Shown here one piece after another: positions 1,193 through 63,772 of a stretch of 64,000 bases of DNA; position 1 is the stretch's first letter; each line of letters opens with the position of its first letter. The notes under the pieces are model-generated. The model had not been told where the DNA came from. It searched no databases and saw only the letters and a list, made by a program, of their open reading frames with translations. The stretch comes from Eledone cirrhosa. Its lineage: Eukaryota. Where the stretch lies: positions 382,974,001 to 383,038,000 of the forward strand of contig OZ024741.1 in assembly GCA_964016885.1 (NCBI GenBank), given 5' to 3'. A program made the translations under genes and the position numbers.

Positions 1193-1223
1193 GTAATAAA
1201 TGTAATCTGAGATTTTCGAGTAT

Positions 1224-1397
1224 TAATAATTGTTTCTACTTTAGGCACAAGGCCAGCAATTACCCAGTGCATTACTGGTACTTTATTTTATCGACCCCGT
1301 AAGGATGAAAGGCAAAGTCAACCTCGGCGGAATTTGAACTCAGATCGTAAAGGGACGTAACTATGCTGGAACGCATGGCGTCCGACCCTCTACCGAT
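1224..1397 (-). mobile_element. tRNA-derived SINE, copy 1
   Basis: Highly similar to 4735-4910. Minus strand has a B-box-like GAGTTCAAATTC and a central CCTTTCATCCTTACGGGGTCGATAAAATAAAGTACCAG domain that resembles conserved metazoan SINE cores (from recall). Confidence 0.8.
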
Positions 1398-1480
1398 TCG
1401 AATGCAATTATGCAAACAAGACTCAATTTTATAGCCATGTCAGTAGAATGAACAGTTCATTCTTACTCTTATGTTGGCAT

Positions 1481-1546
1481 GCGAACAGAACTGCAGACAC
1501 TAATGTTTCTGAGTATCACCCTTCATCAGTACAGCTCACTGTTCAC
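1481..1546 (-). ncRNA. Type I hammerhead ribozyme (solo)
   Basis: Minus strand: stem I GAGCUGUA/UGCAGUUC extended by GUGAACA/UGUUCGC; core CUGAUGA (1529-1523); stem II GGGU-gau-ACUC; GAAA (1509-1506); self-complementary stem III ACAUUAGUGU; GUC cleavage triplet, cut predicted between 1496 and 1495. Confidence 0.88.
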
Positions 1547-1595
1547 CTGGCAAACTGTCAGAAGTAGTGAAAATATATGCTATTTTCAAATATAG

Positions 1596-1662
1596 ACAGT
1601 GACTGATCGGCTTGATTTGCATATTAGCAGACTGCTGATATGCAAATCTGGCTGATCAGTCA

Positions 1663-1666
<4 letters not shown>
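1596..1666. repeat. Inverted repeat, 35-bp arms, 1-nt spacer
   Basis: acagtgactgatcggcttgatttgcatattagcag-a-ctgctgatatgcaaatctggctgatcagtcactgt, 4 mismatches between arms. Confidence 0.95.
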
Positions 1667-9194: not shown

Positions 9195-9239
9195 ATTCAT
9201 ATATATATATATATTTTTATTTTTTTATTTTATAGAAGG

Positions 9240-9656: not shown

Positions 9657-9747
9657 ACGTGCCGTACTAAGAGTGAGAAATGAAATTTCGTTTCATTCTA
9701 TTCCATTTATCGTTTTCGGTGCGCCTGGCCGACTCAACTCACTCCAT

Positions 9748-9755
9748 ATGCAAAT
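9748..9755 (+). promoter_or_regulatory. Octamer motif ATGCAAAT (first copy; present in most units)
   Basis: Exact consensus match ~80 nt upstream of each hammerhead core; also present in the solo element at 1615-1622 (minus) and 1640-1647 (plus). Confidence 0.45.
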
Positions 9756-9784
9756 TGGGCTGCCCAGCCGTTAATTTTCATAAG

Positions 9785-9800
9785 GGAAGTATATACTTTC
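9785..9800. promoter_or_regulatory. TATA-like palindrome GAAAGTATATACTTTC (first copy, GGAAG variant)
   Basis: 16-bp palindrome with a TATATA centre between octamer and hammerhead in each unit. Confidence 0.35.
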
Positions 9801-9804
9801 GGAC

Positions 9805-9891
9805 GTTCAACCATCTGGCAGAAAGGTATACGGTGCTGACGATAGCTAATAAGCTTGAAACTAGTACATCGTTCCTGTGTCAGTGTTGAAT
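9805..9891 (+). ncRNA. Minimal type I hammerhead ribozyme, first array copy, with extended stem I
   Basis: Stem I ACGGUG(9830-9835)/CAUCGU(9867-9872); core CUGACGA (9836-9842); stem II AGCU-aaua-AGCU on a U.U base; GAAA (9857-9860); palindromic stem III ACUAGU; GUA cut after 9866; stem I extends by AGG/CCU, CUGGCA/UGUCAG and GUUCAAC/GUUGAAY. Confidence 0.92.
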
Positions 9892-12800
9892 AAAAAGGTG
9901 ACGTGGTTGCCTAAACATTGTACGGCGTATTCAGGCTGTTTGTTTGTTTACAAACGAACAAACCGCGCATTATAATAAATGTTCGGTAAACTGATACGTG
10001 CATATATATATGTGTGCCTGTATGTATATATATACATGCTACTGTACGTCTGTATACATATATGTATGTACGTATACATACTTACATTTAAGTAAGTGCC
10101 GTACTAAGAGTGAGAAATGAAATTTCGTTTCATTCTATTCCATTTATCGTTTTCGGTGCGCCTGGCCGTCTGAACTCACTCGATATGCGAATTAGGCTGC
10201 TCAGCCGTTAATTTTCATGAGGAAAGTATATACTTTCGGACGTTCAACCATCATGCAGAAAGGTATACGGTGCTGACGATAGCTAATAAGCTTGAAACTA
10301 GTACATCGTTCCTGTGTCAGCGTTGAATAAAAAGGTGACGTGCTTGCCTAAACACTGTACGGCGTAATTCAGGCTGTTTGTTTGTTTACAAACGAACAAA
10401 CCGAGCATTATAATAAATGTTCGGTAAACTGATACGTGCATATATATATGTGTGCCTGTACGTATGTATACATATATGTATGTACGTATACATACATACT
10501 TACATTTAAGTAAGTGCCGTACTAAGAGTGAGAATTGAAATTTCGTTTCATTCTATTCCATTTATTGTTTTCGGTGCGCCTGGCCGACTGAACTCACTCG
10601 ATATGCAAATTGGGCTGCTCAGCCGTTAATTTTCATAAGGAAAGTATATACTTTCGAACGTTCAACCATCATGCAGAAAGGTATACGGTGATGACGCTAG
10701 CTAATAGGCTTGAGACTCGTACATCGTTCCTGCGTCAGTGTTGAATAAAAAGGTGACGTAGTTGCCTAAACACTGTACGGCGTAATTCAGGTTGTTTCTT
10801 TGTTTACAAACGAACAAACCGAGCATTATAATAAATGTTCGGTAAACTGATACGTGCATATATATATATATGTGCCTGTATGTACATATATACATGCTAC
10901 TGTACGTCTGTATACATATATGTATGTACGTATACGTACATACTTACATTTAAGTAAGTGCCGTTCTAAGAGTGAGAAATGAAATTTCGTTTCATTCTAT
11001 TCCATTTATCGTTTTCGGTGCGCCTGGCCGACTGAACTCACTCGATATACAAATTGGGCTGCTCAGCCGTTAATTTTCATAAGGGAAGTATATATTTTCG
11101 GACTTTCAACCATCTGGCAGAAAGGTATACGGTGCTGACGATAGCTAATAAGCTTGAAACTAGAATATCGTTCCTGTGTCAGTGTTGAATAAAAAGGTGA
11201 CGTAGTTGCCTAAACACTGTACGGCGTAATTCAGGCTGTTTGTTTGTTTACAAACGAACAAGCCGAGCATTATAATAAATGTTCGGTAAACTGATACGTG
11301 CATATATATATGTGTGCCTGTATGTATATATATATACATGCTACTATACGTCTGTATACATATATGTATGTACGTATACATACATACTTACATTTAAGTA
11401 AGTGCCGTACTAAGAGTGAGAAATGAAATGTCGTTTAATTCTATTCCATTTATCGTTTTCGGTGCACCTGGACGACTGAACTCACTCGATATGCAAACTA
11501 GTCTGCTCAGCCGTTAATTTTCATAGGGAAAGTATATACTTTCGGACGTTCAACCATCTGGCAGAAAGGTATACGGTGCTGACGATAGCTAATAAGCTTG
11601 AAACTAGTACATCGTTCCTGTGTCAGTGTTGAATAAAAAGGTGACGTGGTTGCCTAAACACTGTACGGCGTAATTCAGGCTGTTTGTTTGTTTACAAACG
11701 AACAAACCGAGCATTATAATAAATGTTCGGTAAACTGATACGTGCATATATATATGTGTGCCTGTATGTATATATATACATGCTACTGTACGGCTGTATA
11801 CATATATGTATGTACGTATACATACATACTTACATTTAAGTAAGTGCCGTACTAAGAGTGAGAAATGAAATTTCGTTTCATTCTATTCCATTTATCGTTT
11901 TCGGTGCGCCTGGCCGACTGTACTCACTCGATATGCAAATTGGGCTGCCCAGCCGTTAATTTTCATAAGGGAAGTATATACTTTCGGACGTTCAACCATC
12001 TGGCAGAAAGGTATACGGTGCTGACGATAGCTAATAAGCTTGAAACTAGTACATCGTTCCTGTGTCAGTGTTGAATAAAAAGGTGACGTGGTTGCCTAAA
12101 CACTGTACGGCTTATTCAGGCTGTTTGTTTGTTTACAAACGAACAAACCGAGCATTATAATAAATGTTCGGTAAACTGATACGTGCATATATATATGTGT
12201 GCCTGTATGTATATATATACATGCTACTGTACGTCTGTATACATATATGTATGTACGTATACATACATACTTACATTTAAGTAAGTGCCGTACTAAGAGT
12301 GAGAAATGAAATTTCGTTTCATTCTATTCCATTTATCGTTTTCGGTGAGCCTGGCCGACTCAACTCACTCGATATGCAAATTGGGCTGCCCAGCCGTTAA
12401 TTTTCATAAGGGAAGTATATACTTTCGGACGTTCAACCATCTGGCAGAAAGGTATACGGTGCTGACGATAGCTAATAAGCTTGAAACTAGTACATCGTTC
12501 CTGTGTCAGTGTTGAATAAAAAGGTGACGTGGTTGCCTAAACACTGTACGGCTTATTCAGGCTGTTTGTTTGTTTACAAACGAACAAACCGAGCATTATA
12601 ATAAATGTTCGGTAAACTGATACGTGCATATATATATATGTGCCTGTATGTACATATATACATGCTACTGTACGTCTGTATACATATATGTATGTACGTA
12701 TACATACTTACATTTAAGTAAGTGCCGTACTAAGAGTGAGAAATGAAATTTCGTTTCATTCTATTCCATTTATCGTTTTCGGTGCGCGTGGCCGACTGAA

Positions 12801-15800
12801 CTCACTCGATATGCAAATTAGGCTGCTCAGCCGTTAATTTTCATAAGGAAAGTATATACTTTCGGACGTTCAACCATCATGCAGAAAGGTATACGGTGCT
12901 GACGATAGCTAATAAGCTTGAAACTAGTACATCGTTCCTGTGTCAGTGTTGAACAAAAAGGTGACGTGGTTGCCTAAACACTGTACGGCGTAACTCAGGC
13001 TGTTTGTTTGTTTAAAAACGAACAAACCGAGCATTATAATAAATGTTCGGTAAACTGATACGTGCATATATATATGTGTGCCTGTATGTATATATATATA
13101 CATGCTACTGTACGTCTGTATACATATATATATGTACGTATACATACATACTTACATTTAAGTAAGTGCCGTACTAAGAGTGAGAAATGAAATGTAGTTT
13201 CATTCTATTCCATTTATCGTTTTCGTGCACCAGGCCGACTGAACTCACTCGATATGCAAATTAGGCTGCTCAGCCGTTAATTTTCATAAGGAAAGTATAT
13301 ACTTTCGGACGTTCAACCATCTGGCAGACAGGTATACGGCGCTGACGATAGCTAATAAGCTTGAAACTAGTACATCGTTCCTGTTTCAGTGTTGAACAGG
13401 AAGATGACGCGGTTGCCTAAACACTGTACGGCGTAATTCAGGCAGTTTGTTTGTTTACAAACGAACAAACCGAGCATTATAATAAATGTTCGGTAAACTG
13501 ATACGTGCATATATATATGTGTGTGCCTGTATGTATATATATACATGCTACTGTACGTCTGTAAACATATATGTATGTACGTATACATACATACTTACAT
13601 TTAAGTAAGTGCTGTACTAAGAGTGAGAAATGAAATTTCGTTTCATTCTATTCCATTTATCGTTTTCGGTGCGTCTGGCCGACTGAACTCACTCGATATG
13701 CAAATTGGACTGCTCAGCCGTTAATTTTCATAAGGGAAGTATATATTTTCGGACGTTCAACCATCTGGCAGAAAGGTATACGGTGCTGACGATAGCTAAT
13801 AAGCTTGAAACTAGTACATCGTTCCTGTATCAGTGTTGAATAAAAAGGTGACGTGGTTGCCTAAACACTGTACGGCGTAATTCAGGCTGTTTGTTTGTTT
13901 ACAAACGAAGAAACCGAGCATTATAATAAATGTTCGGTAAACTGATACGTGCATATATATATGTGTGCCTGTATGTATATATATACATGCTACTGTACGT
14001 CTGTATACATATATGTATGTACGTATACATACATACTTACATTTAAGTAAGTGCTGTACTAAGAGTGAGAAATGAAATGTCGTTTCATTCTATTCCATTT
14101 ATCGTTTTCGTGCACCAGGCCGACTGAACTCACTCGATATGCAAATTAGGCTGCTCAGCCGTTAATTTTCATAAGGAAAGTATATACTTTCGGACGTTCA
14201 ACCATCTGGCAGAAAGGTATACGGCGCTGACGATAGCTAATAAGCTTCAAACTAGTACATCGTTCCTGTTTCAGTGTTGAACAAAAAGATGACGCGGTTG
14301 CCTAAACACTGTACGGCGTAATTCAGGCAGTTTCTTTGTTTACAAACGAACAAACCGAGCATTATAATAAATGTTCGGTAAACTGATACGTGCATATATA
14401 TATGTGTGCCTGTATGTATATATATATACATGCTACTGTACGTCTGTATACATATATGTATGTACGTATACATACATACTTACATTTAAGTAAGTGCCGT
14501 ACTAAGAGTGAGAAATGAAATGTCGTTTAATTCTATTCCATTTATCGTTTTCGGTGCACCTGGACGACTGAACTCACTCGATATGCAAACTAGTCTGCTC
14601 AGCCGTTAATTTTCATAGGGAAAGTATATACTTTCGGACGTTCAACCATCTGGCAGAAAGGTATACGGTGCTGACGATAGCTAATAAGCTTGAAACTAGT
14701 ACATCGTTCCTGTGTCAGTGTTGAATAAAAAGGTGACGTGGTTGCCTAAACACTATACGGCGTAATTCAGGCTGTTTGTTTGTTTACAAACGAACAAACC
14801 GAGCATTATAATAAATGTTCGGTAAACTGATACGTGCATATATATATGTGTGCCTGTATGTATATATATACATGCTACTGTACGTCTGTATACATATATG
14901 TATGTACGTATACATACATACTTACATTTAAGTAAGTGCCGTACTAAGAGTGAGAAATGAAATTTCGTTTCATTCTATTCCATTTATCGTTTTCGGTGCG
15001 CCTGGCCGACTCAACTCACTCGATATGCAAATTGGGCTGCTCAGCCGTTAATTTTCATAAGGGAAGTATATACTTTCGGACGTTCAACCATCTGGCAGAA
15101 AGGTATACGGTGCTGACGATAGCTAATAAGCTTGAAACTAGTACATCGTTCCTGTGTCAGTGTTGAATAAAAAGGTGACGTGGTTGCCTAAACACTGTAC
15201 GGCTTATTCAGGCTGTTTGTTTGTTTACAAACGAACAAACCGAGCATTATAATAAATGTTCGGTAAACTGATACGTGCATATATATATATGTGCCTGTAT
15301 GTACATATATACATGCTACTGTACGTCTGTATACATATATGTATGTACGTATACATACTTACATTTAAGTAAGTGCCGTACTAAGAGTGAGAAATGAAAT
15401 TTCGTTTCATTCTATTCCATTTATCGTTTTCGGTGCGCGTGGCCGACTGAACTCACTCGATATGCAAATTAGGCTGCTCAGCCGTTAATTTTCATAAGGA
15501 AAGTATATACTTTCGGACGTTCAACCATCATGCAGAAAGGTATACGGTGCTGACGATAGCTAATAAGCTTGAAACTAGTACATCGTTCCTGTGTCAGTGT
15601 TGAACAAAAAGGTGACGTGGTTGCCTAAACACTGTACGGCGTAACTCAGGCTGTTTGTTTGTTTAAAAACGAACAAACCGAGCATTATAATAAATGTTCG
15701 GTAAACTGATACGTGCATATATATATGTGTGCCTGTATGTATATATATATACATGCTACTGTACGTCTGTATACATATATGTATGTACGTATACATACAT

Positions 15801-18800
15801 ACTTACATTTAAGTAAGTGCCGTACTAAGAGTGAGAAATGAAATGTAGTTTCATTCTATTCCATTTATCGTTTTCGTGCACCAGGCCGACTGAACTCACT
15901 CGATATGCAAATTAGGCTGCTCAGCCGTTAATTTTCATAAGGAAAGTATATACTTTCGGACGTTCAACCATCTGGCAGAAAGGTATACGGCGCTGACGAT
16001 AGCTAATAAGCTTGAAACTAGTACATCGTTCCTGTTTCAGTGTTGAACAAAAAGATGACGCGGTTGCCTAAACACTGTACGGCGTAATTCAGGCAGTTTG
16101 TTTGTTTACAAACGAACAAACCGAGCATTATAATAAATGTTCGGTAAACTGATACGTGCATATATATATATGTGTGCCTGTATGTATATATATACATGCT
16201 ACTGTACGTCTGTAAACATATATGTATGTACGTATACATACATACTTACATTTAAGTAAGTGCTGTACTAAGAGTGAGAAATGAAATTTCGTTTCATTCT
16301 ATTCCATTTATCGTTTTCGGTACGCCTGGCCGACTGAACTCACTCGATATGCAAATTGGGCTGCTCAGCCGTTAATTTTCATAAGGAAAGTATATACTTT
16401 CGGACGTTCAACCATCTGGCAGAAAGGTATATGGTCCTGACAATAGCTAATAAGCTTGAAACTAGTACATCGTTCTTGTGTCAGTGTTGAACAAAAAGGT
16501 GACGTGGTTGCCTAAACACTGTACGGCGTAATTCAGGCTGTTTGTTTGTTTACAACCGAACAAACCGAGCATTATAATAAATGTTCGGTAAACTGATACG
16601 TGCATATATATATGTGTGCTTGTATGTATATATATACATGCTACTGTACGTATGTATACATATATGTATGTACGTATACATACATACTTACATTTAAGTT
16701 AGTGCCGTACTAAGAGTGAGAAATGAAATTTCGTTTCATTCTATTCCATTTATCGTTTTCGGTGCGCCTGGCCGACTGAACTCACTCGATATGCAAATAT
16801 GGCTGCTAGGCCGTTAATTTTCATAAGGAAAGTATATACTTTCGGACATTCAACCATCTGGCAGAAAGGGATACGGTGCTGACGATAGCTAATAAGCTTG
16901 AAACTAGTACATCGTCCCTGTGTCAGGGTTGAACAAAAATGTGACGCGGTTGCCTAAACATTGTACGGCGTAATTCAGGCTGTTTGTTTGATTACAAACG
17001 AACAAACCGAGCATTATAATAAATGTTCGGTAAACTGATACGTGCATATATATTTGTGTGCCTGTATGTATATATATACATGTTACTGTACGTATGTATA
17101 CATATATGTATGTACGTATACATACATACTTACATTTAAGTAAGTGCCGTACTAAGAGTGAGAAATGAAATTTCGTTTCATTCTATTCCATTTATCGTTT
17201 TCGGTGCGCCTGGCCGACTGAAATCACTCGATATGCAAATATGGCTGCTCAACCGTTAATTTTCATAAGGAAAGTATATACTTTCGGACGTTCAACCATC
17301 TGGCAGAAAGGTATACGGTGTTGACGATAGCTAATAAGCTTGAAACTAGTACATCGTCCCTGTGTCAGGGTTGAACAAAAATGTGACGTGGTTGCCTAAA
17401 CATTGTACGGCGTAATTCAGGCTGTTTGTTTGTTTACAAACGAACAAACCGAGCATTATAATAAATGTTCGGTAAACTGATACGTGCATATATATATGTG
17501 TGCCTGTATGTATATATATACATGTTACTGTACGTATGTATACATATATGTATGTACGTATACATACATACTTACATTTAAGTAAGTGCCGTACTAAGAG
17601 TGAGAAATGAAATTTCGTTTCATTCTATTCCATTTATCGTTTTCGGTGCGTCTGGCCGACTGAACTCACTAGATATGCAAATTGGGCTGCTCAGCCGTTA
17701 ATTTTCATAAGGAAAGTATATACTTTCGGACGTTCAATCATCTGGCAGAAAGGTATATGGTCCTGACAATAGCTAATAAGCTTGAAACTAGTACATCGTT
17801 CTTGTGTCAGTGTTGAACAAAAAGGTGACGTGGTTGCCTAAACACTGTACGGCGTAATTCAGGCTGTTTGTTTGTTTACAACCGAACAAACCGAGCATTA
17901 TAATAAATGTTCGGTAAAATGATACGTGCATATATATATGTGTGCCTGTATGTATATATATACATGCTACTGTACGTATGTATACATATATGTATGTACG
18001 TATACATACATACTTACATTTAAGTTAGTGCCGTACTAAGAGTGAGAAATGAAATTTCGTTTCATTCTATTCCATTTATCGTTTTCGGTGCGCCTGGCCG
18101 ACTGAACTCACTCGATATGCAAATATGGCTGCTAGGCCGTTAATTTTCATAAGGAAAGTATATACTTTCGGACATTCAACCATCTGGCAGAAAGTGATAC
18201 GGTGCTGACGATAGCTAATAAGCTTGAAGCTAGTACATCGTCCCTGTGTCAGGGTTGAACAAAAATGTGACGCGGTTGCCTAAACATTGTACGGCGTAAT
18301 TCAGGCTGTTTGTTTGATTACAAACGAACAAACCGAGCATTATAATAAATGTTCGGTAAACTGATACGTGCATATATATATGTGTGCCTGTATGTATATA
18401 TATACATGTTACTGTACGTATGTATACATATATGTATGTACGTATACATACATACTTACATTTAAGTAAGTGCCGTACTAAGAGTGAGAAATGAAATTTC
18501 GTTTCATTCTATTCCATTTATCGTTTTCGGTGCGCCTGGCCGACTGAAATCACTCGATATGCAAATATGGCTGCTCAACCGTTAATTTTCATAAGGAAAG
18601 TATATACTTTCGGACGTTCAACCATCTGGCAGAAAGGTATACGGTGCTGACGATAGCTAATAAGCTTGAAACTAGTACATCATCCCTGTGTCAGGGTTGA
18701 ACAAAAATGTGACGTGGTTGCCTAAACATTGTACGGCGTAATTCAGGCTGTTTGTTTGTTTACAAACGAACATACCGAGCATTATAATAAATGTTCGGTA

Positions 18801-21800
18801 AACTGATATGTGCATATATATATGTGTGCCTGTATGTATATATATACATGTTACTGTACGTATGTATACATATATGTATGTACGTATACATACATACTTA
18901 CATTTAAGTAAGTGCCCTACTAAGAGTGAGAAATGAAATTTCGTTTCATTCTATTCCATTTATCGTTTTCGGTGCGTCTGGCCGACTGAACTCACTAGAT
19001 ATGCAAATTGGGCTGCTCAGCCGTTAATTTTCATAAGGAAAGTATATACTTTCGGACGTTCAACCATCTGGCAGAAAGGTATACGGCGCTGACGATAGCT
19101 AATAAGCTTGAAACTAGTACATCGTTCCTGTTTCAGTGTTGAACAAAAAGATGACGCGGTTGCCTAAACACTGTACGGCGTAATTCAGGCAGTTTCTTTG
19201 TTTACAAACGAACAAACCGAGCATTATAATAAATGTTCGGTAAACTGATACGTGCATATATATATGTGTGCCTGTATGTATATATATACATGCTACTGTA
19301 CCTCTGTATACATATATGTATGTACGTATACATACATACTTACATTAAAGTAAATGCCGTACTAAGAGTCAGAAATGAAATTTCGTTTTATTTTATTCCA
19401 TTTATCGTTTTCGGTGCGCCTGGCCGACTGAACTCACTAGATATGCAAATTAGGCTGCTCAGCCGTTAATTTTCATGAGGAAAGTATATACTTTGGGACG
19501 TTCAACCATCTGGCAGAAAGGTATACGGTGCTGACGATAGCTAATAAGCTTGAAACTAGTACATCGTTCCTGTGTCAGTGTTGAACAAAATGTGACGTGG
19601 TTGCCTAAACATTGTACGGCGTAATTCAGGCTGTTTGTTTGTTTACAGACGAACAAACCGAGCATTATAATAAATGTTCTGTAAACTGATACGTGCATAT
19701 ATATATGTGTACCTGTATGTATATATATACATGCTACTGTACGTCTGTATACATATATGTATGTACGTATACATACATACTTACATTTAAGTAAGTACCG
19801 TACTAAGAGTGAGAAATGAAATTTCGTTTCATTCTATTCCATTTATCGTTTTCGGTGGGCCTGGTCGACTGAAATCACTCGATATGCAAATATGGCTGCT
19901 CAGCCGTTAATTTTCATAAGGAAAGTATATACTTTCGGACGTTCAACCATCTGGCAGAAAGGTATACGGTGCTGACGATAGCTAATAAGCTTGAAACTAG
20001 TACATCGTCCCTGTGTCAGGGTTGAACAAAAATGTGACGTGGTTGCCTAAACATTGTACGGCGTAATTCAGGCTGTTTGTTTGTTTACAAACGAACAAAC
20101 CGAGCATTATAATAAATGTTCGGTAAACTGATACGTGCATATATATATGTGTGCCTGTATGTATATATATACATGTTACTGTACGTATGTATACATATAT
20201 GTATGTAAGTATACATACATACTTACATTTAAGTAAGTGGCGTACTAAGAGTGAGAAATGAAATTTCGTTTCATTCTATTCCATTTATCGTTTTCGGTGC
20301 GTCTGGCCGACTGAACTCACTAGATATGCAAATTGGGCTGCTCAGCCGTTAATTTTCATAAGGAAAGTATATACTTTCGGACGTTCAACCATCTGGCAGA
20401 AAGGTATATGGTCCTGACAATAGCTAATAAGCTTGAAACTAGTACATCGTTCTTGTGTCAGTGTTGAACAAAAAGGTGACGTGGTTGCCTAAACACTGTA
20501 CGGCGTAATTCAGGCTGTTTGTTTGTTTACAACCGAACAAACCGAGCATTATAATAAATGTTCGGTAAACTGATACGTGCATATATATATGTGTGCCTGT
20601 ATGTATATATATACATGCTACTGTACGTATGTATACATATATGTATGTACGTATACATACATACTTACATTTAAGTTAGTGCCGTACTAAGAGTGAGAAA
20701 TGAAATTTCGTTTCATTCTATTCCATTTATCGTTTTCGGTGCGCCTGGCCGACTGAACTCACTCGATATGCAAATATGGCTGCTCAGCCGTTAATTTTCA
20801 TAAGGAAAGTATATACTTTCGGACGTTCAACCATCTGGCAGAAAGGTATACGGTGCTGACGATAGCCAATAAGCTTGAAACCAGTACATCGTCCCTGTGT
20901 CAGGGTTGAACAAAAATGTGACGCGGTTGCCTAAACATTGTACGGCGTAATTCAGGCTGTTTGTTTGATTACAAACGAACAAACCGAGCATTATAATAAA
21001 TGTTCGGTAAACTGATACGTGCATATATATATGTGTGCCTGTATGTATATATATACATGTTACTGTACGTATGTATACATATATGTATGTACGTATACAT
21101 ACATACTTACATTTAAGTAAGTGCCGTACTAAGAGTGAGAAATGAAATTTCGTTTCATTCTATTCCATTTATCGTTTTCGGTGCGTCTGGCCGACTGAAC
21201 TCACTAGATATGCAAATTGGGCTGCTCAGCCGTTAATTTTCATAAGGAAAGTATATACTTTCGGACGTTCAACCATCTGGCATAAAGGTATACGGTGCTG
21301 ACGATAGCTAATAAGCTTGAGACTAGTACATCGTTCCTGTGTCAGTGTTGAATAAAAAGGTGACGTGGTTGCCTAAACACTGTACGGCGTAATTCAGGCT
21401 GTTTGTTTGTTTACAAACGAACAAACCGAGCATTATAATAAATGTTCGGTAAACTGATACGTGCATATATATATGTGTGCCTGTATGTATATATATACAT
21501 GCTACTGTACGTCTGTATACATATATGTATGTACGTATACATACATACTTACATTTAAGTAAGTACCGTACTAAGAGTGAGAAATGAAACTTCGTTTCAT
21601 TCTATTCAATTTATCGTTTTCGGTGCGCCTGGCCGACTGAACTCACTCGATATGCAAATTGGGCTGCTCAGCCGTTAATTTTCATAAGGAAAGTATATAC
21701 TTTCGGACGTTCAACCATCTGGCAGAAAGGTATATGGTCCTGACGATAGCTAATAAGCTTGAAACTAGTACATCGTTCTTGTGTCAGTGTTGAACAAAAA

Positions 21801-24800
21801 GGTGACGTGGTTGCCCATATACTGTACGGCGTAATACAGGCTGTTTATTTGTTTACAAACGAACAAACCGAGCATTATAATAAATGTTCGGTAAACTGAT
21901 ATGTGCATATATATATGTGTGCCTGTATGTATATATATATACATGCTACTGTACGTCTGTATACATATATGTATGTACGTATACATACATACTTACATTT
22001 AAGTAAGTGCCGTACTAAGAGTGAGAAATGAAATGTCGTTTCATTCTATTCCATTTATCGTTTTCGTGCACCAGGCCGACTGAACTCACTCGATATGCAA
22101 ATTAGGCTGCTCAGCCGTTAATTTTCATAAGGAAAGTATATACTTTCGGACGTTCAACCATCTGGCAGAAAGGTATACGGTGCTGACGATAGCTAATAAG
22201 CTTGAAACTAGTACATCGTTCCTGTGTCAGTGTTGAACAAAAAGGTGACGTGGTTGCCTAAACATTGTACGGCGTAATTCAGGCTGTTTGTTTGTTTACA
22301 AACGAACAAACCGAGCATTATAATAAATGTTCGGTAAACTGATACGTGCATATATATATGTGTACCTGTATGTATATATATACATGCTACTGTACGTCTG
22401 TATACATATATGTATGTACGTATACATACATACTTACATTTAAGTAAGTACCGTACGAAGAGTGAGAAATGAAATTTCGTTTCATTCTATTCCATTTATC
22501 GTTTTCGGTGGGCCTGGCCGACTGAATTCACTCGATATACAAATTAGGCTTCTCGGCCGTTAATTTTCATAAGGAAAGTATATACTTTCGGACGTTCAAC
22601 CATCTGGCAGAAAGGTATATGGTCCTGACGATAGCTAATAAGCTTGAAACTAGTACATCGTTCTTGTGTCAGTGTTGAACAAAAAGGTAACGTGGTTGCC
22701 TAAACACTGTACGGCGTAATTCAGGCTGTTTGTTTGTTTACAACCGAACAAACCGAGCATTATAATAAATGTTCGGTAAACTGATACGTGCATATATATA
22801 TGTGTGCCTGTATGTATATATATACATGCTACTGTACGTATGTATACATATATGTATGTACGTATACATACATACTTACATTTAAGTTAGTGCCGTACTA
22901 AGAGTGATAAATGAAATTTCGTTTCATTCTATTCCATTCATCGTTTTCGGTGCGCCTGGCCGACTGAACTCACTCGATATGCAAATATGGCTGCTCAGCC
23001 GTTAATTTTCATAAGGAAAGTATATACTTTCGGACGTTCAACCATCTGGCAGAAAGGTATACGGTGCTGACGATAGCTAATAAGCTTGAAACTAGTACAT
23101 CGTCCCTGTGTCAGGGTTGAACAAAAATGTGACGCGGTTGCCTATACATTGTACGGCGTAATTCAGGCTGTTTGTTTGATTACAAACGAACAAACCGAGC
23201 ATTATAATAAATGTTCGGTAAACTGATACGTGCATATATATATGTGTGCCTGTATGTATATATATACAGTTTACTGTACGTATGTATACATATATGTATG
23301 TGCGTATACATACATACTTACATTTAAGTAAGTGCCGTACTAAGAGTGAGAAATGAAATTTCGTTTCATTCTATTCCATTTATCGTTTTCGGTGCGTCTG
23401 GCCGACTGAAATCACTCGATATGCAAATTAGGCTTCTCGGCCGTTAATTTTCACAAGGAAAGTATGTACTTTCGGACGTTCAACCATCTGGCAGAAAGGT
23501 ATATGGTCCTGACGATAGCTAATAAGCTTGAAACTAGTACATCGTTCTTATGTCAGTGTTGAACAAAAAGGTGACGTGGTTGCGTAAACACTGTACGGCG
23601 TAATTCAGGCTGTTTGTTTGTTTACAACCGAACAAACCGAGCATTATAATAAATGTTCGGTAAACTGATACGTGCATATATATATGTGTGCCTGTATGTA
23701 TATATATACATGCTAATGTACGTATCTATACATATATGTATGTACGTATACATACATACTTACATTTAAGTTAGTGCCGTACTAAGAGTGAGAAATGAAA
23801 TTTCGTTTCATTCTATTCCATTTGTCCTTTTCGGTGCCCCTGGCCGACTGAACTCACTCGATATGCAAATTAGGCTGCTCAGCCGTTAAATTTCAGAAGG
23901 AAAGTATATACTTTCGGACGTCAACCATCTGGCAGAAAGGTATACGGTGCTGACGATCGCTAATTAGCTTGAAACTAGTACATCGTTCCTGTGTCAGTGT
24001 TGAACAAAAAGGTGACGTGGTTGCCTAAACATTGTACGGCGTAATTTAGGCTGTTTATTTGTTTACAAACGAACAAACCGAGCATTATAACAAATGTTCG
24101 GTAAACTGATACGTGCATATATATGTGTGCCTGTATGTATATATATACATGCTACTGTACGTCTGTATACATATATGTATGTACGTATACATACATACTT
24201 ACATTTAAGTAAGTGCCGTACTAAGTGTGAGAAATGAAATGTCGTTTCATTCTATTCCATTTATCGTTTTCGGTGCCCCCTGGCCGACTGAACTCACTCG
24301 ATATGCAAATTAGGCTGCTCAGCCGTTAATTTTCATAGGGAAAGTATATACTTTCGGACGTTCAACCATCTGGCAGAAAGGTATACGGTGCTGACGATAG
24401 CTAATAAGCTTGAAACTAGTGCATCGTTCCTGTGTCAGTGTTGAATAAAAAGGTGACGTGGTTGCCTAAACAGTGTACGGCGTAATTCAGGCTGTTTGTT
24501 TGTTTACAAACGAACATACCGAGCATTATAATAAATGTTCGGTAAACCGATACGTGCATATATATATGTGTGCCTGTATGTATATATATACATGCTACTG
24601 TACGTCTGTATACATATATGTATGTACGTATACATACATACTTACATTTAAGTAAGTGCCGTACTAAGAGTGAGAAATGAAATTTCGTTTCATTCTATTC
24701 CATTTATCGTTTTCGGTGCGCCTGGCCGACTGAACTCGTTCGATATGCAAATTAGGCTGCTAAGCTGTTAATTTTCATAAGGAAAGTATATACTTTCGGA

Positions 24801-27800
24801 CGTTCAACCATCTGGCAGAAAGGTATATGGTCCTCACTATAGCTAATAAGCTTGAAACTAGTACATCGTTCCTGTGTCAGTATTGGATAAAAAGGTGACG
24901 TGGTTGCCTAAACACTGTACGGCGTAATTATGGCTGTTTGTTTGTTTACAAACGAACAAACCGAGCATTATAATAAATGTTCGGTAAACTGATACGTGCA
25001 TATATATATGTGTGCCTGTATGTATATATATATACATGCTACTGTACGTCTGTATACATATATGTATGTACGTATACATACATACTTACATTTAAGTAAG
25101 TGCCGTACTAAGTGTGAGAAATGAAATGTCGTTTCATTCTATTCCATTTATCGTTTTCGGTGCACCTGGCCGACTGAACTCACTCGATATGCAAATTAGG
25201 CTGCTCAGCCGTTAATTTTCATAGGGAAAGTATATACTTTTGGACGTTCAACCATCTGGCAGAAAGGTATACGGTGCTGACGATAGCTAATAAGCTTGAA
25301 ACTAGTGCATTGTTCCTGTGTCAGTGTTGAATAAAAAGGTGACGTGGTTGCCTAAACACTGTACGGCGTAATTCAGGCTGTTTGTTTGTTTACAAACGAA
25401 CATACCGAGCATTATAATAAATGTTCGGTAAACCGATACGTGCATATATATATGTGTGCCTGTATGTATATATATACATGCTACTGTACGTCTGTATACA
25501 TATATGTATGTACGTATACATACATACTTACATTTAAGTAAGTGCCGTACTAAGAGTGAGAAATGAAACTTTGTTTCATTTCATTCCATTTATCGGTTTC
25601 GGTGCGCCTGGCCGACTGAACTCACTCGATATGCAAATTAGGCTGCTCAGCCGTTAATTTTCAGAAGGAAAGTATATACTTTCGGACGTTCAACCATCTG
25701 GCAGAAAGGTATACGGTGCTGACGATAGCTAATAAGCTTGAAACTAGTACATCGTTCCTATGACAGTGTTGAACAAAAAGGTGACGTGGTTGCCTAAACA
25801 TTGTACGGCGTAATTCAGGCTGTTTCTTTGTTTACAAACGAACAAACCGAGCATTATAATAAATGTTCGGTAAACTGATACGTGCATATATATATGTGTG
25901 CCTGTATGTATATATATACATGCTACTGTACGTCTGTATACATATATGTATGTACGTATACATACATACTTACGTTTAAGTAAGTGCCGTACTAAGAGTG
26001 AGAAATGAAATTTCGTTTCATTCTATTCCATTTATCGTTCTCGGTGCGCCTGGCAGACTGAACTCACTCGATATGCAAATTGGGCTGCTCAGCCGTTAAC
26101 TTTCATAAGGAAAGTATATACTTTCGGACGTTCAACCATCTGGCAGAAAGGTATACGGTGCTGACGAAAGCTAATAAACTTGAAACTAGTACATCGTTTT
26201 AGTGTCAGTGTTGAAGAAAAAGGTGACGTAGTTGCCTAAACACTGTACGGCGTAATTCAGGTTGTTTGTTTGTTTACAAACGAACAAACCGGGCATTATA
26301 ATAAATGTTCGGTAAACTGATACGTGCATATATATATGTTTGCCGGTATGTATATATATACATGCTACTGTACGTCTGTATACATATATGTATGTACGTA
26401 TACATACATACTTACATTTAAGTAAGTGCCGTACTAAGAGTGAGAAATGAAACTTCGTTTCATTTCATTCCATTTATCGTTTTCGGTGCGCCTGGCCGAC
26501 TGAACTCACTCGATATGCAAATTAGGCTGCTCAGCCGTTAATTTTCATAAGGAAAGTATATACTTTCGGACGTTCAACCATCTGGCAGAAAGGTATACGG
26601 TGCTGACGATAGCTAATAAGCTTGAAACTAGTACATCGTTCCTATGACAGTGTTGAACAAAAAGGTGACGTGGTTGCCTAAACATTGTACGGCGTAATTC
26701 AGGCTGTTTCTTTGTTTACAAACGAACAAACCGAGCATTATAATAAATGTTCGGTAAACTGATACGTGCATATATATATGTGTGCCTGTATGTATATATA
26801 TACATGCTACTGTACGTATGTATACATATATGTATGTACGTATACATACATACTTACGGTTAAGTAAGTGCCGTACTAAGAGTGAGAAATGAAATTTCGT
26901 TTCATTCTATTCCATTTATCGTTTTCGGTGCGCCTGGCCGACTGAACTCACTCGATATGCAAATTGGGCTGCTCAGCCGTTAATTTTTATAAGGAAAGTA
27001 TATACTTTCGGACGTTCAACCATCTGGCAGAAAGGTATACGGTGCTGACGATAGCTAATAAGCTTGAAACTAGTACATCGTTTTTGTGTCAGTGTTGAAA
27101 AAAAAGGTGACGTGGTTGCCTAAACACTGTACGGCGTAATTATGGCTGTTTGTTTGTTTACAAACGAACAAACCGAGCATTATAATAAATGTTCGGTAAA
27201 CTGATACGTGCATATATATATGTGTGCCTGTATGTATATATATATACATGCTACTGTACGTCTGTATGCATATATGTATGTACGTATACATACATACTTA
27301 CATTTCAGTAAGTGCCGTACTAAGTGTGAGAAATGAAATGACGTTTCATTCTATTCCATTTATCGTTTTCGGTGCACCTGGCCGACTGAACTCACTCAAT
27401 ATGCAAATTAGGCTGCTCAGCCGTTAATTTTCATAAGTAAAGTATATACTTTCGGACGTTCAACCGTCTGGCAGAAAGGTATACGTTGCTGACGATAGCT
27501 AATAAGCTTGAAACTAGTACATCGTTCCTGTGTCAGTGTTGAATAAAAAGGTGACGTGGTTGCCTAAACACTGTACGGCGTAATTCAGGATGTTTGTTTG
27601 TTTACAAACGAACAAACCGAGCATTATAATAAATGTTCGGTAAACTGATACGTGCATATATATATGTTCGCCTGTATGTATATATATATACATGCTACTG
27701 TACGTCTGTATACATATATGTATGTACGTATACATAAATACTTACATTTAAGTAAATGCCGTACTAAGTGTGAGAAATGAAATGTCGTTTCATTCTATTC

Positions 27801-30800
27801 CATTTATCGTTTTCGGTGCACCTGGCCGACTGAACTCACCCGATATGCAAATTAGGCTGCTCAGCCGTTAATTTTCATAGGGAAAGTATATACTTTCGGA
27901 CGTTCAACCATCTGGCACAAAGGTATACGGTGCTGACGATAGCTAATAAGCTTCAAACTAGTACATCGTTTTTGTGTCAGTGTTGAACAAAAAGGTGACG
28001 TGGTTGCCTAAACACTGTACGGCGTAATTCAGGCTGTTTGTTTGTTTACAAACGAACAAACCGAGCATTATAATAAATGTTCGGTAAACTGATACGTGCA
28101 TATATATATGTGTGCCTGTATGTATATATATACATGCTACTGTACGTATGTATACATATATGTATGTACGTATACATACATACTTACGTTTAAGTAAGTG
28201 CCGTACTAAGAGTGAGAAATGAAATTTCGTTTCATTCTATTCCATTTATGGTTTTCGGTGCGCCTGGCCGAGTGAACTCACTCGATATGCAAATTGGGCT
28301 GCTCAGCCGTTAATTTTCATAAGGAAAGTATATATTTTCGGACGTTCAACCATCTGGCAGAAAGGTATACGGTGCTGACGATAGCTAATAAGCTTGAAAC
28401 TAGTACATCGTTTTTGTGTCAGTGTTGAACAAAAAGGTGACGTGGTTGCCTAAACACTGTACGGCGTAATTCAGGCTGTCTGTTTGTTTACAAACGAACA
28501 AACCGAGCATTATAATAAATGTTCGGTAAACTGATACGTGCATATATATATGTGTGCCCGTATGTATATGTATATACATGCTACTGTACGTCTGTATACA
28601 TGTATGTATGTACGTATAAATATATACTTACATTTAAGTAAGTGCCGTACGAAGAGTGAGAAATGAAATGTCGTTTCATTGTATTCCATTTATCGTTTTC
28701 GGTGCACCTGGCCGACTGAACTCACTTGATATGCAAATTAGGCTGCTCAGCCGTTAATTTTCATTGAGAAAGTATATACTTTCGGACGTTCAACCATCTG
28801 GCAGAAAGGTATACGGTGCTGACGATAGCTAATAAGCTTGAAACTAGTACATCGTTTTTGTGTCAGTGTTGAACAAAAAGGTGACGTGGTTGCCTAAACA
28901 CTGTACGGCGTAATTCAGGTTGTTTGTTTGTTTACAAACGAACAAACCGGGCATTATAATAAATGTTCGGTAAACTGATACGTGCATATATATATGTTTG
29001 CCTGTATGTATATATATACATGCTACTGTACGTCTGTATACATATATGTATGTACGTATACATACATACTTACATTTAAGTAAGTGCCGTACTAAGAGTG
29101 AGAAATGAAATTTCTTTTCATTCTATTCCATTTATCGTTTTCGGTGCGCCTGGCCGATTGAACTCAATCGATATGCAAATTGGGCTGCTCAGCCGTTAAT
29201 TTTCATAAGGAAAGTATATACTTTCGGACGTTCAACCATCTGGCAGAAAGGTATACGGTGCTGACGATAGCTAATAAGCCTGAAACTAGTACATCGTTTT
29301 TGTGTCAGTGTTGAAAAAAAAGATGACGCGGTTGCCTGAACACTGTACGGCGTAATTCAGGCTGTTTTTTTGTTTACAAACGAACAAACCGAGCATTATA
29401 ATAAATGTTCGGTAAACTGATACTTGCATATATATATGTGTGCCTGTATGTATATATATACATGCTACTGTACGTCTGTATACATATATGTATGTACGTA
29501 TACATACATACTTACATTTAAGTAAGTGCCGTACTAAGAGTGAGAAATGAAATTTCGTTTCATTCTATTCCATTTATCGTTTTCGGTGCGCCTGGCCGAC
29601 TGAACTCACCCGATATGCCAATTAGGCTGTAAAGCTGTTAATTTTCATAAGGAAAGTATATACTTTCGGACTTTCAACCATCTGGCAGAAAGGTATACGG
29701 TGCTGACGATAGCTAATAAGCTTGAAACTAGTACATCGTTCTTGTGTCAGTGTTGAACAAAAAGCTGACGTGGTTGCCTAAACACTGTACGGCGTAATTC
29801 AGGCTGTTTGTTTGTTTACAAACGAACAAACCGAGCATTATAAAAAATGTTCGGTAAACTGATACGTGCATATATATATGTGTGCCTGTATGTATATATA
29901 TACATGCTACTGTACGTATGTATACATATATGTATGTACGTATACATACATACTTACATTTAAGTAAGTACCGTACTAAGAGTGAGAAATGAAATTTCGT
30001 TTCATTCTATTCAATTTATCGTTTTCGGTGCACCTGGCCGACTGAACTCACCCGATATGCAAATTAGGCTGCTCAGCCGTTAATTTTCATAGGGAAAGTA
30101 TATACTTTCGGACGTTCAACCATCTGGCACAAAGGTATACGGTGCTGACGATAGCTAATAAGCTTCAAACTAGTACATCGTTTTTGTGTCAGTGTTGAAC
30201 AAAAAGGTGACGTGGTTGCCTAAACACTGTACGGCGTAATTCAGGCTGTTTGTTTGTTTACAAACGAACAAACCGAGCATTATAATAAATGTTCGGTAAA
30301 CTGATACGTGCATATATATATATGTGTGCCTGTATGTATATATATACATGCTACTGTACGTATGTATACATATATGTATGTACGTATACATACATACTTA
30401 CGTTTAAGTAAGTGCCGTACTAAGAGTGAGAAATGAAATTTCGTTTCATTCTATTCCATTTATGGTTTTCGGTGCGCCTGGCCGAGTGAACTCACTCGAT
30501 ATGCAAATTGGGCTGCTCAGCCGTTAATTTTCATAAGGAAAGTATATATTTTCGGACGTTCAACCATCTGGCAGAAAGGTATACGGTGCTGACGATAGCT
30601 AATAAGCTTGAAACTAGTACATCGTTTTTGTGTCAGTGTTGAACAAAAAGGTGACGTGGTTGCCTAAACACTGTACGGCGTAATTCAGGCTGTCTGTTTG
30701 TTTACAAACGAACAAACCGATCATTATAATAAATGTTCGGTAAACTGATACGTGCATATATATATGTGTGCCCGTATGTATATGTATATACATGCTACTG

Positions 30801-36600: not shown

Positions 36601-38050
36601 AATTAAGTGCCGTACTAAGAGTGAGAAATGAAATGTCGTTTCATTCTATTCCATTAATCGTTTTCGGTACACCTGGCCGACTGAACTGACTCGATATGCA
36701 AATTAGGCTGCTCAGCCGTTAATTTTCATAAGGAAAGTATATACTTTCGGACGTTCAACCATCTGGCAGAAAGGTATACGGTGCTGACGATAGCTAATAA
36801 GATTGAAACTAGTACATCGTTCTTGTGTCAGTGTTGAACAAAAAGGTGACGTGGTTGCCTAAACACTGTACGGCGTAATTCAGGCTGTTTGTTCGTTTAC
36901 AAACGAACAAACCGAGCATTATAATAAATGTTCGGTAAACTGATACGTGCATATATATATATGTGTGCCTGTATGTATATATATACATGCTACTGTACGT
37001 CTGTATACATATATGTATGTACGTATACATACATACTTACATTTAAGTAAGTGCCGTAATAAGAGTGAGAAATGAAATTTCGTTTCATTCTATTCCATTT
37101 ATCGTTTTCGGTGCGCCTGGCCGACTGAACTCACTCGATATGCAAATTGGGCTGCTCAGCCGTTAATTTTCATAAGGAAATTATATACTTTCGGACGTTC
37201 AACCATCTGGCAGAAAGATATACGGTGCTGACGATAGCTAATAAGCTTGAATCTAGTACATCGTTCCTGTGTCAGTGTTGAACAAAAAGGTGACGTGGTT
37301 GCCTAACCATTGTACGGCGTAATTCAGGCTGTTGTTTGTTTACAAACGAACAAACCGAGTATTATAATAAATGTTCGGTAAACTGATACGTGCATATATA
37401 TATGTGTGCCTGTATGTATATATATATACATGCTACTGTACGTCTGTATACGTATATGTATGTACGTATACATACATACTTACATTTAAGTAAGTGCCGT
37501 CTAAGAGTGAGAAATGAAATGTCGTTTCATTCTATTCCATTTATCGTTTTCGGTGCACCTGGCCGACTGAACTCACTCGATATGCAAATTGGGCTGCTCA
37601 GCCGTTAATTTTCATAAGGGAAGTATATACTTTCGGACGTTCAACCATCTGTCAGAAAGGTATACGGTGCTGACGATAGCTAATAAGCTTGAAACTAGTA
37701 CATCGTCCCTGTGTCAGGGTTGGACAAAAAGGTGACGTGGTTGCCTAAACATTGTACGGCGTAATTCAGGCTGTTTGTTTGTTTACAAACGAACAAACCG
37801 AGCATTCTAATAAATGTTCGGTAAAATGATACGTGCATATATATAGGTGTGCCTGTATGTATATATATACATGCTACTGTACGTCTGTACACATATATGT
37901 ATGTACGTATACATACATACTTACATTTAAGAACCGTACTAAGAGTGAGAAATGAAATTTCGTTTCATTCTATTCCATTTATCGTTTTCGGTGCCCCTGG
38001 CCGATTGAACTCACTTGATATGCAAATTAGGCTGCTCAGCCGTTAAATTT
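33631..38050 (+). repeat. Higher-order tandem duplication of 5 units (2210 bp x2)
   Basis: Diagnostic variants and ORF-track entries recur at +2210 (33832/36042, 34155/36365, 34599/36809, 35180/37390, 35485/37695). Confidence 0.9.
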
Positions 38051-51200: not shown

Positions 51201-51700
51201 TTACATTTAAGTAAGTGCCGTACTAAGAGTGAGAAATGAAATGTCGTTTCAGTGTATTCCATTTATCGTTTAGGGTGCACCTGGCCGACTGAACTCACTC
51301 GATATGCAAATTAGGCTGCTCAGCTGTTAATTTTCATTGGGAAAGTATATACTTTCGGACGTTCAACCATCTGGCAGAAAGGTATACGGTGCTGACGATA
51401 GCTAATAAGCTTGAAACTAGTACATCGTTTTTGTGTCAGTGTTGAACAAAAAGGTGACGTGGTTGCCTAAACACTGTACGGCGTAATTCAGGCTGTTTGT
51501 TTGTTTACAAACGAACAAACCGAGCATTATAATAAATGTTCGGTAAACTGATATGTGCATATATATATGTGTGCCTGTATGTATATATATACATGCTACT
51601 GTACGTATGTATACATATATGTATGTACCTATACATACATACTTATATTTAAGTAAGTACCGTACTAAGAGTGAGAAATGAAATTTCGTTTCATTCTATT
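39270..51700 (+). repeat. Higher-order tandem duplication of 14 units (~6198 bp x2)
   Basis: Variants recur at +6197/6198 (42561/48759, 43565/49763, 43888/50086, 44332/50530, 44679/50877); boundaries approximate. Confidence 0.9.
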
Positions 51701-63700: not shown

Positions 63701-63772
63701 GGCTGCTCAGCCGTTAATTTTCATAAGGAAAGTATATACTTTCGGACGTTCAACCATCTGGCAGAAAGGTAT

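What the first reader, a model, noticed from the sequence alone, without database searches (positions are those of the whole stretch)
1440..1666. Solo element 8 kb upstream is a short, diverged relative of the array unit
Seen: read on the minus strand it has the same module order as the array unit. ATATGCAAAT is followed by (ct)GGCTGaTCAGtC in the right palindrome arm (array GGCTGcTCAGcC). Next is the GAAAAT..ATATATTTTC palindrome (array GAAAGTATATACTTTC), then the hammerhead. Last comes atgccaacaTAAGAGTaagAATGAActgTTCATTCTA (array gtgccgtacTAAGAGTgagaAATGAAatttcgtTTCATTCTA). In the solo copy this last motif follows the ribozyme directly, whereas the array unit has ~200 extra bases there. The hammerhead helices differ almost entirely in sequence yet keep their pairing. 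Inference: a family of ribozyme elements with conserved non-catalytic modules; the AATGAA..TTCATT hairpin may be a protein or RT recognition signal. The array also begins at exactly this motif (9659).
Basis: partly seen in the sequence, partly recalled or inferred. Interest (0 to 1): 0.78.

Follow-up and report, generated by a model that had tools for sequence, protein, structure and literature searches.

The report
Self-cutting jumping RNA with U6-like promoter
This stretch is a broken copy of a self-cutting-RNA repeat found thousands of times in this animal genome; it and its sister repeats carry a match to the host's own small-RNA (U6-type) promoter, so they are likely transcribed from it and likely pasted into (TA)n runs by Penelope-type transposons.

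Summary
The hammerhead and the shared modules are real, but the 'solo' is neither solo nor short. It is a 5'-truncated, SINE-interrupted copy of a dispersed 437-nt family (B; 3,656 exact matches of one 27-mer), distantly related to the 442-nt array family (A) and to a third family (G, 466 nt). All fit the definition of non-LTR retrozymes. Their copies show Penelope-type insertion marks: fixed 3' ends on (TA)n, scattered 5' ends and head-to-head inversions. Neptune-type Penelope elements are abundant in the genome, but no donor was identified. So each monomer likely carries a Pol III type-3 promoter that fires into the next ribozyme. B has a T6 run where many copies end; A has only T4 and forms long arrays. 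Against this: TATA spacing is 3-7 nt short, G reads through T5, and there are no RNA data. The module order is not identical: the TAAGAG hairpin sits elsewhere in B. New variant of a known kind.

The parts
1394..1639 (-). Main piece of the family B copy (B327 to B136 of the next unit), 94% identical to the family consensus
1611..1623 (-). U6-type upstream box TATGCAAATCAAG (family consensus TATGCAAATCAGG; this copy has one change)
   Evidence: score 12.1, 6 of 500 shuffles; B consensus 16.9, 0 of 500
1569..1587 (-). Palindrome holding a TATA-like box (GCATATAT), inferred TATA of the promoter
   Evidence: TATA score 7.5 against 9.9-11.6 in host genes; spacing shorter than in the host
1481..1546 (-). 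Type I hammerhead: helix I 1546-1530 / 1495-1481, core 1529-1523, helix II 4 bp closed by an A.A mismatch, GAAA 1509-1506, helix III with UUAG loop, predicted cut between 1496 and 1495; predicted transcription start near 1546-1549
   Evidence: sequence; cleavage and start site untested
1445..1463 (-). AGAATGAA/TTCATTCT hairpin (module M1) shared with families A and G
1394..1417 (-). Start of module M2 (GTTTG..CAAAC and CGA..TCG hairpins), broken by the SINE
1231..1393 (-). tRNA-type SINE (B-box-like GAGTTCAAATTCC at 1341-1329) inserted into the TTATTATT loop of M2; not part of the element
   Evidence: the SINE label rests on the B-box-like motif and on recalled knowledge
1195..1230 (-). Last piece of the B copy (B143-178), ending at CATTTAT, the commonest 3' end of the family, next to a TA/TG microsatellite (903-1195)
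1628..1666 (+). Short inverted piece of B (promoter-box repeat) joined head-to-head to the main piece and ending on (TA)19 at 1666-1703: the 5' inversion
9659..64000 (+). Tandem array of family A, 442-nt unit (first unit: hairpin 9659-9700, octamer 9748-9755, hammerhead core 9836-9842, predicted cut between 9866 and 9867); runs about 5.8 kb past the window, about 136 units, ends at A317 on (TA)n

Best explanation
The feature is a truncated genomic copy of a 437-nt hammerhead repeat family (non-LTR retrozyme type) whose monomer carries a match to the host's U6-type promoter, is likely transcribed from it by Pol III, is predicted to cut itself, and is likely copied into (TA)n microsatellites by the RT-endonuclease of a Neptune-type Penelope element. 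Steps: (1) shown: each monomer has TATGCAAATYAG, then a TATA-like box, then a hammerhead whose core lies 88-100 nt after the octamer; inferred: transcription starts about 72-78 nt after the octamer, inside the 5' arm of helix I. (2) Inferred: the ribozyme cuts about 45-55 nt later; most B transcripts stop at the T6 run (B207-212), while read-through into a second ribozyme in tandem copies releases a full monomer (linear or circular) that carries the promoter at its 3' end. (3) Shown: copies have two fixed 3' ends joined to (AT)n, scattered 5' ends and head-to-head inversions; inferred: target-primed reverse transcription in trans with internal initiation, as for Penelope-like elements. (4) Inferred: families without a strong terminator (A, G) give multimer copies that seed long arrays such as the one at 9659. 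My split: retrozyme-type family 0.9, Penelope-type mobilisation 0.8, Pol III U6-type promoter 0.6.
For: Family size and monomer. Homology of A with B in modules (sum of the four best local alignments 101; shuffles mean 70, max 87, 300 shuffles) and of A with G over the whole monomer (84; 0 of 300). Hammerhead cores intact and helices paired with different sequences in A, A2, B, G and K. Ends: 73 of 80 B matches end at B177-222 and none at 223-437; 55 of 80 are followed by an AT run; 39 of 80 have an inverted partner; 23 of 26 A ends and 23 of 25 G ends fall in two narrow clusters. These match the published marks of Penelope-like elements (PMC8557442, passages; PMC11167929, main text). RT plus GIY-YIG ORFs with a CxxC linker and hammerheads in their ends are abundant. 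Promoter: the top-scoring U6 (two loci and one array), U6atac and MRP genes all carry TATG(C/G)(A/T)AAT(T/G)AG at -76 to -78 and TATA at -30; leave-one-out finds the box at the right place in 5 of 5; A, A2, B, G and K score 16-20 bits with 0 of 500 shuffles each; 8 of 8 controls (2 U2 promoters, 4 Penelope ends, 2 other hammerhead families) do not. 8 of 67 B 5' ends fall in the 6 nt after the predicted cut, 1.0 expected. 12 of 15 B copies that reach the T6 run end in or at it.
Against: No expression or cleavage data. The TATA-like box scores lower and lies 3-7 nt closer to the box than in host genes (oct+41 to +43 against +46 to +48), and K has none. G copies of 2-3 units pass two T5 runs per unit, and 27 of 67 B copies reach upstream of the predicted start, so read-through or another template is required. 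Helix I pairing extends upstream of the predicted start in A, B, G and K, so the start is not independently marked by structure. No sampled Penelope terminal repeat is a significant homologue (best non-microsatellite hits 11-12 of 300 shuffles among 21 comparisons). The host promoter set is only five genes, and the other U6/U6atac hits lacked the box (they look like retrocopies). The 5'-end peak was a window noticed after the fact; four of its eight copies start at the same position, three with the same inversion junction (P rises from 1e-5 to 0.004 if they count once). In vitro, the one reconstituted Penelope protein starts without homology and prefers uncut RNA (PMC11167929).
Confidence: 0.58

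Rival explanations
1. Same retrozyme family and Penelope-type mobilisation, but the octamer plus TATA is a Pol II promoter (as reported for newt satellite 2) or an enhancer-like site, and multimer Pol II transcripts are the templates.
For: Multi-unit copies read through T4 and T5 runs; TATA spacing differs from the host's Pol III genes; newt satellite 2 is described as Pol II-transcribed from an snRNA-type promoter (PMC2220036 and PMC6765202, passages). ATGCAAAT is a general POU-factor site (recalled).
Against: The match extends beyond the octamer (TATGCAAATKAG) and is found in the host's Pol III genes but not within 330 bp of five U2 genes viewed (two scored); B copies stop at the T6 run and none of 80 ends in B223-437.
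Confidence: 0.22
2. The repeats are detached terminal repeats (pLTRs) of an unsampled autonomous Penelope family; the box is that family's own promoter and most copies are just 5'-truncated Penelope insertions.
For: Retrozymes are reported to derive from pLTRs (bioRxiv 10.64898/2026.07.22.740005). Family A's hammerhead has the same build as those in this genome's Neptune ends (U.U closing mismatch, 4-bp helix II, palindromic tetranucleotide). Only 50 of 150 listed GIY-YIG hits were fetched, of 10,596 candidates.
Against: Copies longer than one unit continue into another monomer, never into an ORF, in the loci examined; sampled Penelope ends have CCAAT-like and TATA boxes, not the octamer box, and do not align.
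Confidence: 0.1
3. They are satellite-like DNA spread by DNA-level mechanisms (rolling-circle DNA, recombination in microsatellites), with the ribozyme and box as relics.
For: The 136-unit array almost certainly grew by DNA-level expansion; 26 of 118 window units have lost the core pattern.
Against: Fixed 3' ends with scattered 5' ends and inversions are retroposition marks; helices keep pairing across families while sequence changes; copies are young (90-99% identical).
Confidence: 0.05
4. They are mobilised by an AP-endonuclease LINE (RTE or L2 type), like ordinary SINEs.
For: LINE fragments and a SINE lie nearby; SINE-like behaviour of short Pol III RNAs is established knowledge.
Against: No poly-A or repeat tail of its own; two internal 3' ends 30-70 nt apart and inversions with a 3' end on each side fit Penelope, not LINE, integration (PMC8557442).
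Confidence: 0.05

Closest known systems
Non-LTR retrozymes of animals (Cervera and de la Pena 2020, PMC7229834; passages read)
   Same: Type I hammerhead in a non-coding 150-450 bp repeat of low GC, dimers to long multimers, dispersed monomers; mussel families of 350-390 bp; U.U mismatch at the base of helix II as in axolotl HHR_Amex2.
   Different: The passages seen name no promoter ('octamer' 0 hits) and no cephalopod. Here a U6-type box, two fixed 3' ends on (TA)n and inversions are documented. Circular RNA, shown there, is untested here.
Retrozymes as non-autonomous Penelope derivatives (bioRxiv 10.64898/2026.07.22.740005; parts 1-3 of 5 read, supplements not seen)
   Same: Co-occurrence with Penelope-like elements, proposed mobilisation in trans, arrays up to 180-300 units.
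   Different: That work rests on co-occurrence and pLTR homology in vertebrates; here the support is the insertion junctions, and no pLTR homology was found in six sampled stretches.
Neptune-type Penelope-like elements (PMC8557442 passages; PMC11167929 parts 1-2 of 4; PMC4209133 part 1 of 4)
   Same: 5' truncation, partial tandems, inverted 5' copy, two 3' ends ('tail'), microsatellite targets, hammerhead, promoter in the upstream unit serving the downstream one.
   Different: No ORF; promoter box unlike the sampled pLTRs; B has a hammerhead with a stable helix III.
Newt satellite 2 and schistosome SM-alpha (seen only through PMC6765202 and PMC2220036 passages; the primary papers were not held)
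   Same: Hammerhead repeat with its own promoter that ends up at the 3' end of the cut monomer, so tandem copies are needed.
   Different: Newt uses an snRNA-type promoter with Pol II; schistosome uses Pol III (internal A/B boxes, recalled). Here the match is to the external box plus TATA of U6, U6atac and MRP genes.

Membership tests
non-LTR retrozyme | type I hammerhead with intact core in each unit | tested here: met
   cores and helices in A, A2, B, G, K; 92 of 118 window units keep the core pattern
non-LTR retrozyme | short tandem monomer of about 150-450 bp, low GC, dimers to multimers | tested here: met
   437, 442 and 466 nt; GC about 0.37 in the array; B tandems in 3 of the first 30 loci
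non-LTR retrozyme | no LTRs and no coding region; monomer joins monomer | tested here: met
   multi-unit copies continue into the next monomer; no ORF search beyond inspection of the consensus
non-LTR retrozyme | self-cleavage activity | not testable with these tools
   only indirect: 5'-end excess just after the predicted cut
non-LTR retrozyme | expressed as small circular RNA | tested here: inconclusive
   no suitable RNA run; 0 contigs laid from X1, two weak 35-nt pieces from X2
Penelope-mobilised element | 5' truncation, inverted 5' copy, two fixed 3' ends, microsatellite target | tested here: met
Penelope-mobilised element | autonomous RT + GIY-YIG elements present in the genome | tested here: met
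Penelope pLTR derivative | sequence homology to the pLTR of an autonomous element | tested here: not met
   no significant non-microsatellite alignment with six stretches from five families; sampling incomplete
Pol III type 3 (U6-type) promoter | upstream box matching the host's U6, U6atac and MRP genes | tested here: met
Pol III type 3 (U6-type) promoter | TATA box at the host's spacing from the upstream box | tested here: inconclusive
   TATA-like box in A, A2, B, G but 3-7 nt closer; absent in K
Pol III type 3 (U6-type) promoter | oligo-T terminator downstream | tested here: inconclusive
   T6 in B coincides with copy ends; A has only T4; G passes T5; host terminators T5-T10
Pol III type 3 (U6-type) promoter | Pol III occupancy and mapped start site | not testable with these tools
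   needs ChIP or 5'-end mapping

The most novel reading that the evidence does not exclude
A retrozyme superfamily has captured the host's external U6-type Pol III promoter and keeps it by ribozyme-driven permutation, scattering over ten thousand such promoters through the genome by hijacking Neptune proteins; terminator strength decides whether a family spreads as short solos (B, T6) or as multimers that seed satellites (A, T4). This would name both the polymerase and the integrase of an animal retrozyme, and would show a route by which an external promoter survives retroposition.
Probability: 0.45. Interest if true: 0.72.

Novelty: new variant of a known kind. Interest (0 to 1): 0.55.

Why it matters
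How animal retrozymes are transcribed and integrated is largely open. These families give clean, testable answers from sequence alone: a defined promoter box shared with U6, U6atac and MRP, a predicted start and cut site, nucleotide-level RT start sites, and near-intact Neptune ORFs as candidate helpers. They also link satellite birth to a retro-insertion (the 60-kb array has the same 3' junction as dispersed copies). As a by-product the work defines a compact Pol III type-3 promoter box for this animal, useful for guide-RNA expression. I found no report of these points in searches (open-access library only; supplements of the 2026 preprint and the 2020 paper, which may list related genomes, were not seen).

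Tried and rejected
Rfam at gathering score: 0 matches in the window. Expression: the one run search was aimed at the flank of L019 rather than the element, so it was weak; laying X1 and X2 gave no real cover of B or A, which says nothing about expression; X3 (kind not on record) holds B abundantly. A first promoter matrix with unaligned boxes gave non-significant scores (A 42, B 25, G 15, K 88 of 200 shuffles) because host boxes are offset by 1-2 nt; it was redone aligned on the octamer. The idea that the predicted start equals the outer end of helix I was rejected: pairing extends further upstream. The idea that B has a second degenerate M1 at the position collinear with A was rejected (219 of 1000 shuffles). 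B against G is not significant on its own (79 of 300), so B is tied in through A. pLTR homology to five Neptune families: not significant. My first hammerhead scan of GIY-YIG loci found none because it was too strict; a relaxed scan found them. R-scape and a covariance model were not run: copies within a family are too alike and there are only four or five independent families. Earlier-findings look-ups returned nothing. The primary newt and schistosome papers were not held.

Full report
What is there. Against the consensus of 118 array units, 1440-1631 scores 55, reached by 6 of 1000 dinucleotide shuffles; the upstream part and the tail each by 1 of 1000; the hammerhead alone by 358 of 1000. 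Rfam finds nothing at gathering score. The array is 442-nt units from 9659 to about 5.8 kb past the window, about 136 units.

It is not a solo. A search of the own genome (3.0 Gb) gave 2,212 candidates, with the best copies 90-96% identical; one 27-mer has 3,656 exact matches against 0 for the reversed control. Three of the first 30 loci hold tandem copies 436-438 nt apart, so the monomer (family B, 437 nt) is as long as the array unit (family A). The window copy runs from 1639 to 1394, is interrupted by a SINE (1231-1393), resumes at 1230-1195 and ends at CATTTAT beside a microsatellite; a short inverted piece at 1628-1666 ends on (TA)19. The long palindrome at 1594-1666 is that inversion. 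Family A is also dispersed (2,782 candidates; 1,904 exact matches of a 31-letter pattern).

Relationship between families. A and B share the octamer module (score 31, 1 of 300 shuffles), a double-hairpin module M2 (31, 1 of 300) and the TAAGAG hairpin M1 (not significant in the whole-monomer test, 265 of 300; 4 of 1000 in a focused test); the four best alignments sum to 101 against a shuffle maximum of 87. The order differs: ribozyme-M1-M2 in B, ribozyme-M2-TA-rich stretch-M1 in A. The M1 pattern has 9,301 genome matches and the octamer module 22,309, both against 0 controls. A relaxed hammerhead scan of 648 kb of fetched sequence found 148 motifs in 11 clusters, among them a third family G (466 nt; the octamer-to-hammerhead pattern has 8,625 matches against 3, mostly G among the 100 listed). 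G is collinear with A over the whole monomer (84; 0 of 300); B against G is not significant alone (79 of 300); one copy of a further family K matches G around the octamer (1 of 300). Helices I and II pair in all of them with different sequences.

How the copies were made. I took the first 80 matches of the B 27-mer on contig C1 (70 fetched loci; not a random sample). 73 of 80 end at B177-222 (38 at 177-182, 35 at 199-222), none at 223-437, and 7 run into the next unit; 55 are followed by an AT run; 39 have an inverted B piece at the 5' end; 5' ends are scattered. A ends cluster at 256-260 and 312-317 (23 of 26 in the loci), G ends at 259-265 and 332-334 (23 of 25). The big array ends at A317 on (TA)n like the dispersed copies, so it likely grew from one such insertion. 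5' truncation, partial tandems, an inverted 5' copy, a two-ended 'tail' and microsatellite bias are the described marks of Penelope-like elements (PMC8557442, passages), and a purified Penelope protein starts reverse transcription at two internal sites and extends both strands of AT-rich DNA (PMC11167929, parts 1-2 of 4). The genome has many candidates: 150 scored GIY-YIG hits of 10,596 candidates, with CxxC linkers typical of Neptune (clade call from that motif, no tree), RT domains (3 of 3 tested), ORFs up to 1,096 aa and hammerheads in their ends, some with a U3-A8 core. None of six terminal stretches from five families aligns significantly with A, B or G outside TA repeats, so the helper is inferred, not identified. 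Leaving out 13 SINE-interrupted rows, 8 of 67 B 5' ends fall at B35-40, right after the predicted cut, 1.0 expected (P 1e-5; 0.004 if the four at B40 count once; window chosen after looking), while 33 go past the cut and 27 past the predicted start. Templates therefore likely include cut linear RNA and longer uncut or circular forms.

The promoter. I fetched the host's snRNA genes to test the octamer. The two top U6 loci, the U6 array, the top U6atac locus and the single RNase MRP gene all have TATG(C/G)(A/T)AAT(T/G)AG at -76 to -78 and TATA at -30. Five U2 genes viewed lack it. The other U6 (12 fetched, plus L266 and L267) and U6atac (7) hits lack it at that place and look like retrocopies, and some U6 array units have a SINE between box and TATA. 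With a matrix aligned on the octamer, leave-one-out finds the box at the right place in 5 of 5; A, A2, B, G and K score 16.1-20.3 bits, 0 of 500 shuffles each; the window copy, with one change, 12.1 (6 of 500); eight controls score 1.2-8.0 (46-467 of 500). An earlier, misaligned version of the matrix was not significant. The host's distance puts the start inside the 5' arm of helix I, 11-24 nt before the core, so a primary transcript would hold a whole ribozyme. Host terminators are T5-T10; B has T6 at 207-212, where 12 of 15 copies that reach it stop, A has only T4, and G has T5 runs that multi-unit copies pass. This fits a Pol III promoter with leaky termination, and would explain why B is mostly short solos while A and G form arrays, but it is inference from three families. 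B's A-like CATTTAT site beyond the T6 run is not used as an end in the 80-copy sample.

Comparison. The elements meet the sequence definition of non-LTR retrozymes (PMC7229834, passages); circular RNA and cleavage are untested (searches gave no usable RNA). A Penelope origin and helper is already proposed (bioRxiv 10.64898/2026.07.22.740005, parts 1-3 of 5). Promoter-bearing hammerhead repeats are known from newt (snRNA-type, Pol II) and schistosome (Pol III) (PMC6765202, PMC2220036, passages). An external U6-type box in such an element, junction-level evidence for Penelope-type integration, and the families themselves did not turn up in searches (listings and abstracts; open-access library only). 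The host is probably an octopus-type cephalopod (recalled from its repeats, not tested); a squid genome paper lists 235 hammerhead hits without analysis (PMC6962438, passage).

Verdict. The most useful results are the promoter match and the exact ends, which make transcription and mobilisation of an animal retrozyme directly testable. Interest 0.55.

Noticed in passing
window 1231-1393 and 4742-4906; 13 of 80 B copies: A tRNA-type SINE inserts again and again into the same TTATTATT loop of family B (B143); copies differ in length and sequence, which suggests independent, target-biased insertions. The same SINE sits between box and TATA in several U6 array units (L252, L253, L257).
   Followed up: partly
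L300:1257-1625: A 244-nt family B piece is joined head-to-head to a full-length U6atac copy that ends on (AC)n(AT)n, like a two-armed insertion with one arm from each RNA. Single case.
   Followed up: partly
window 9200-9420 minus strand; also L011, L137, L150, L157: Another hammerhead family (C) with a long helix III ends on (AT)n just upstream of the array; it lacks the octamer box.
   Followed up: partly
window 9543-9623: A perfect palindrome of about 80 bp flanked by (AAAT)n and (TTTA)n directly before the array; looks like a head-to-head insertion of another element's 3' end.
   Followed up: no
L051-L079, L141-L159 (3' ends of GIY-YIG ORFs): Several Neptune-type families carry hammerheads with the U3-A8 core (TTGATAA or TTGAAAA ... 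GAAA CCGG TA); one family appears to have GCAA instead of GAAA.
   Followed up: partly
L129:2223-2867; L003, L183: A 322-nt tandem hammerhead family (H) whose members switch between C3-G8 and U3-A8 cores; no octamer box; a piece of it follows the end of the big array in L278.
   Followed up: partly
L231, L233, L246, L247, L264 at about -250 to -270: U2 and U6 genes share a distal TKACCTCCCTT-like motif; U2 genes share TCAGTGGRTGT at about -58. Candidate promoter elements of this animal.
   Followed up: no
window about 8300-9130, + strand: Degraded LINE-like RT fragment (CYKGKGDAL..YNGIKLLD), several stops and frameshifts; RTE-like label is recalled.
   Followed up: no
C1 positions (for example 5540785-5543224): Family A has subfamilies with units of about 460-500 nt, and an A2 variant with changed hammerhead closing bases.
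   Followed up: partly
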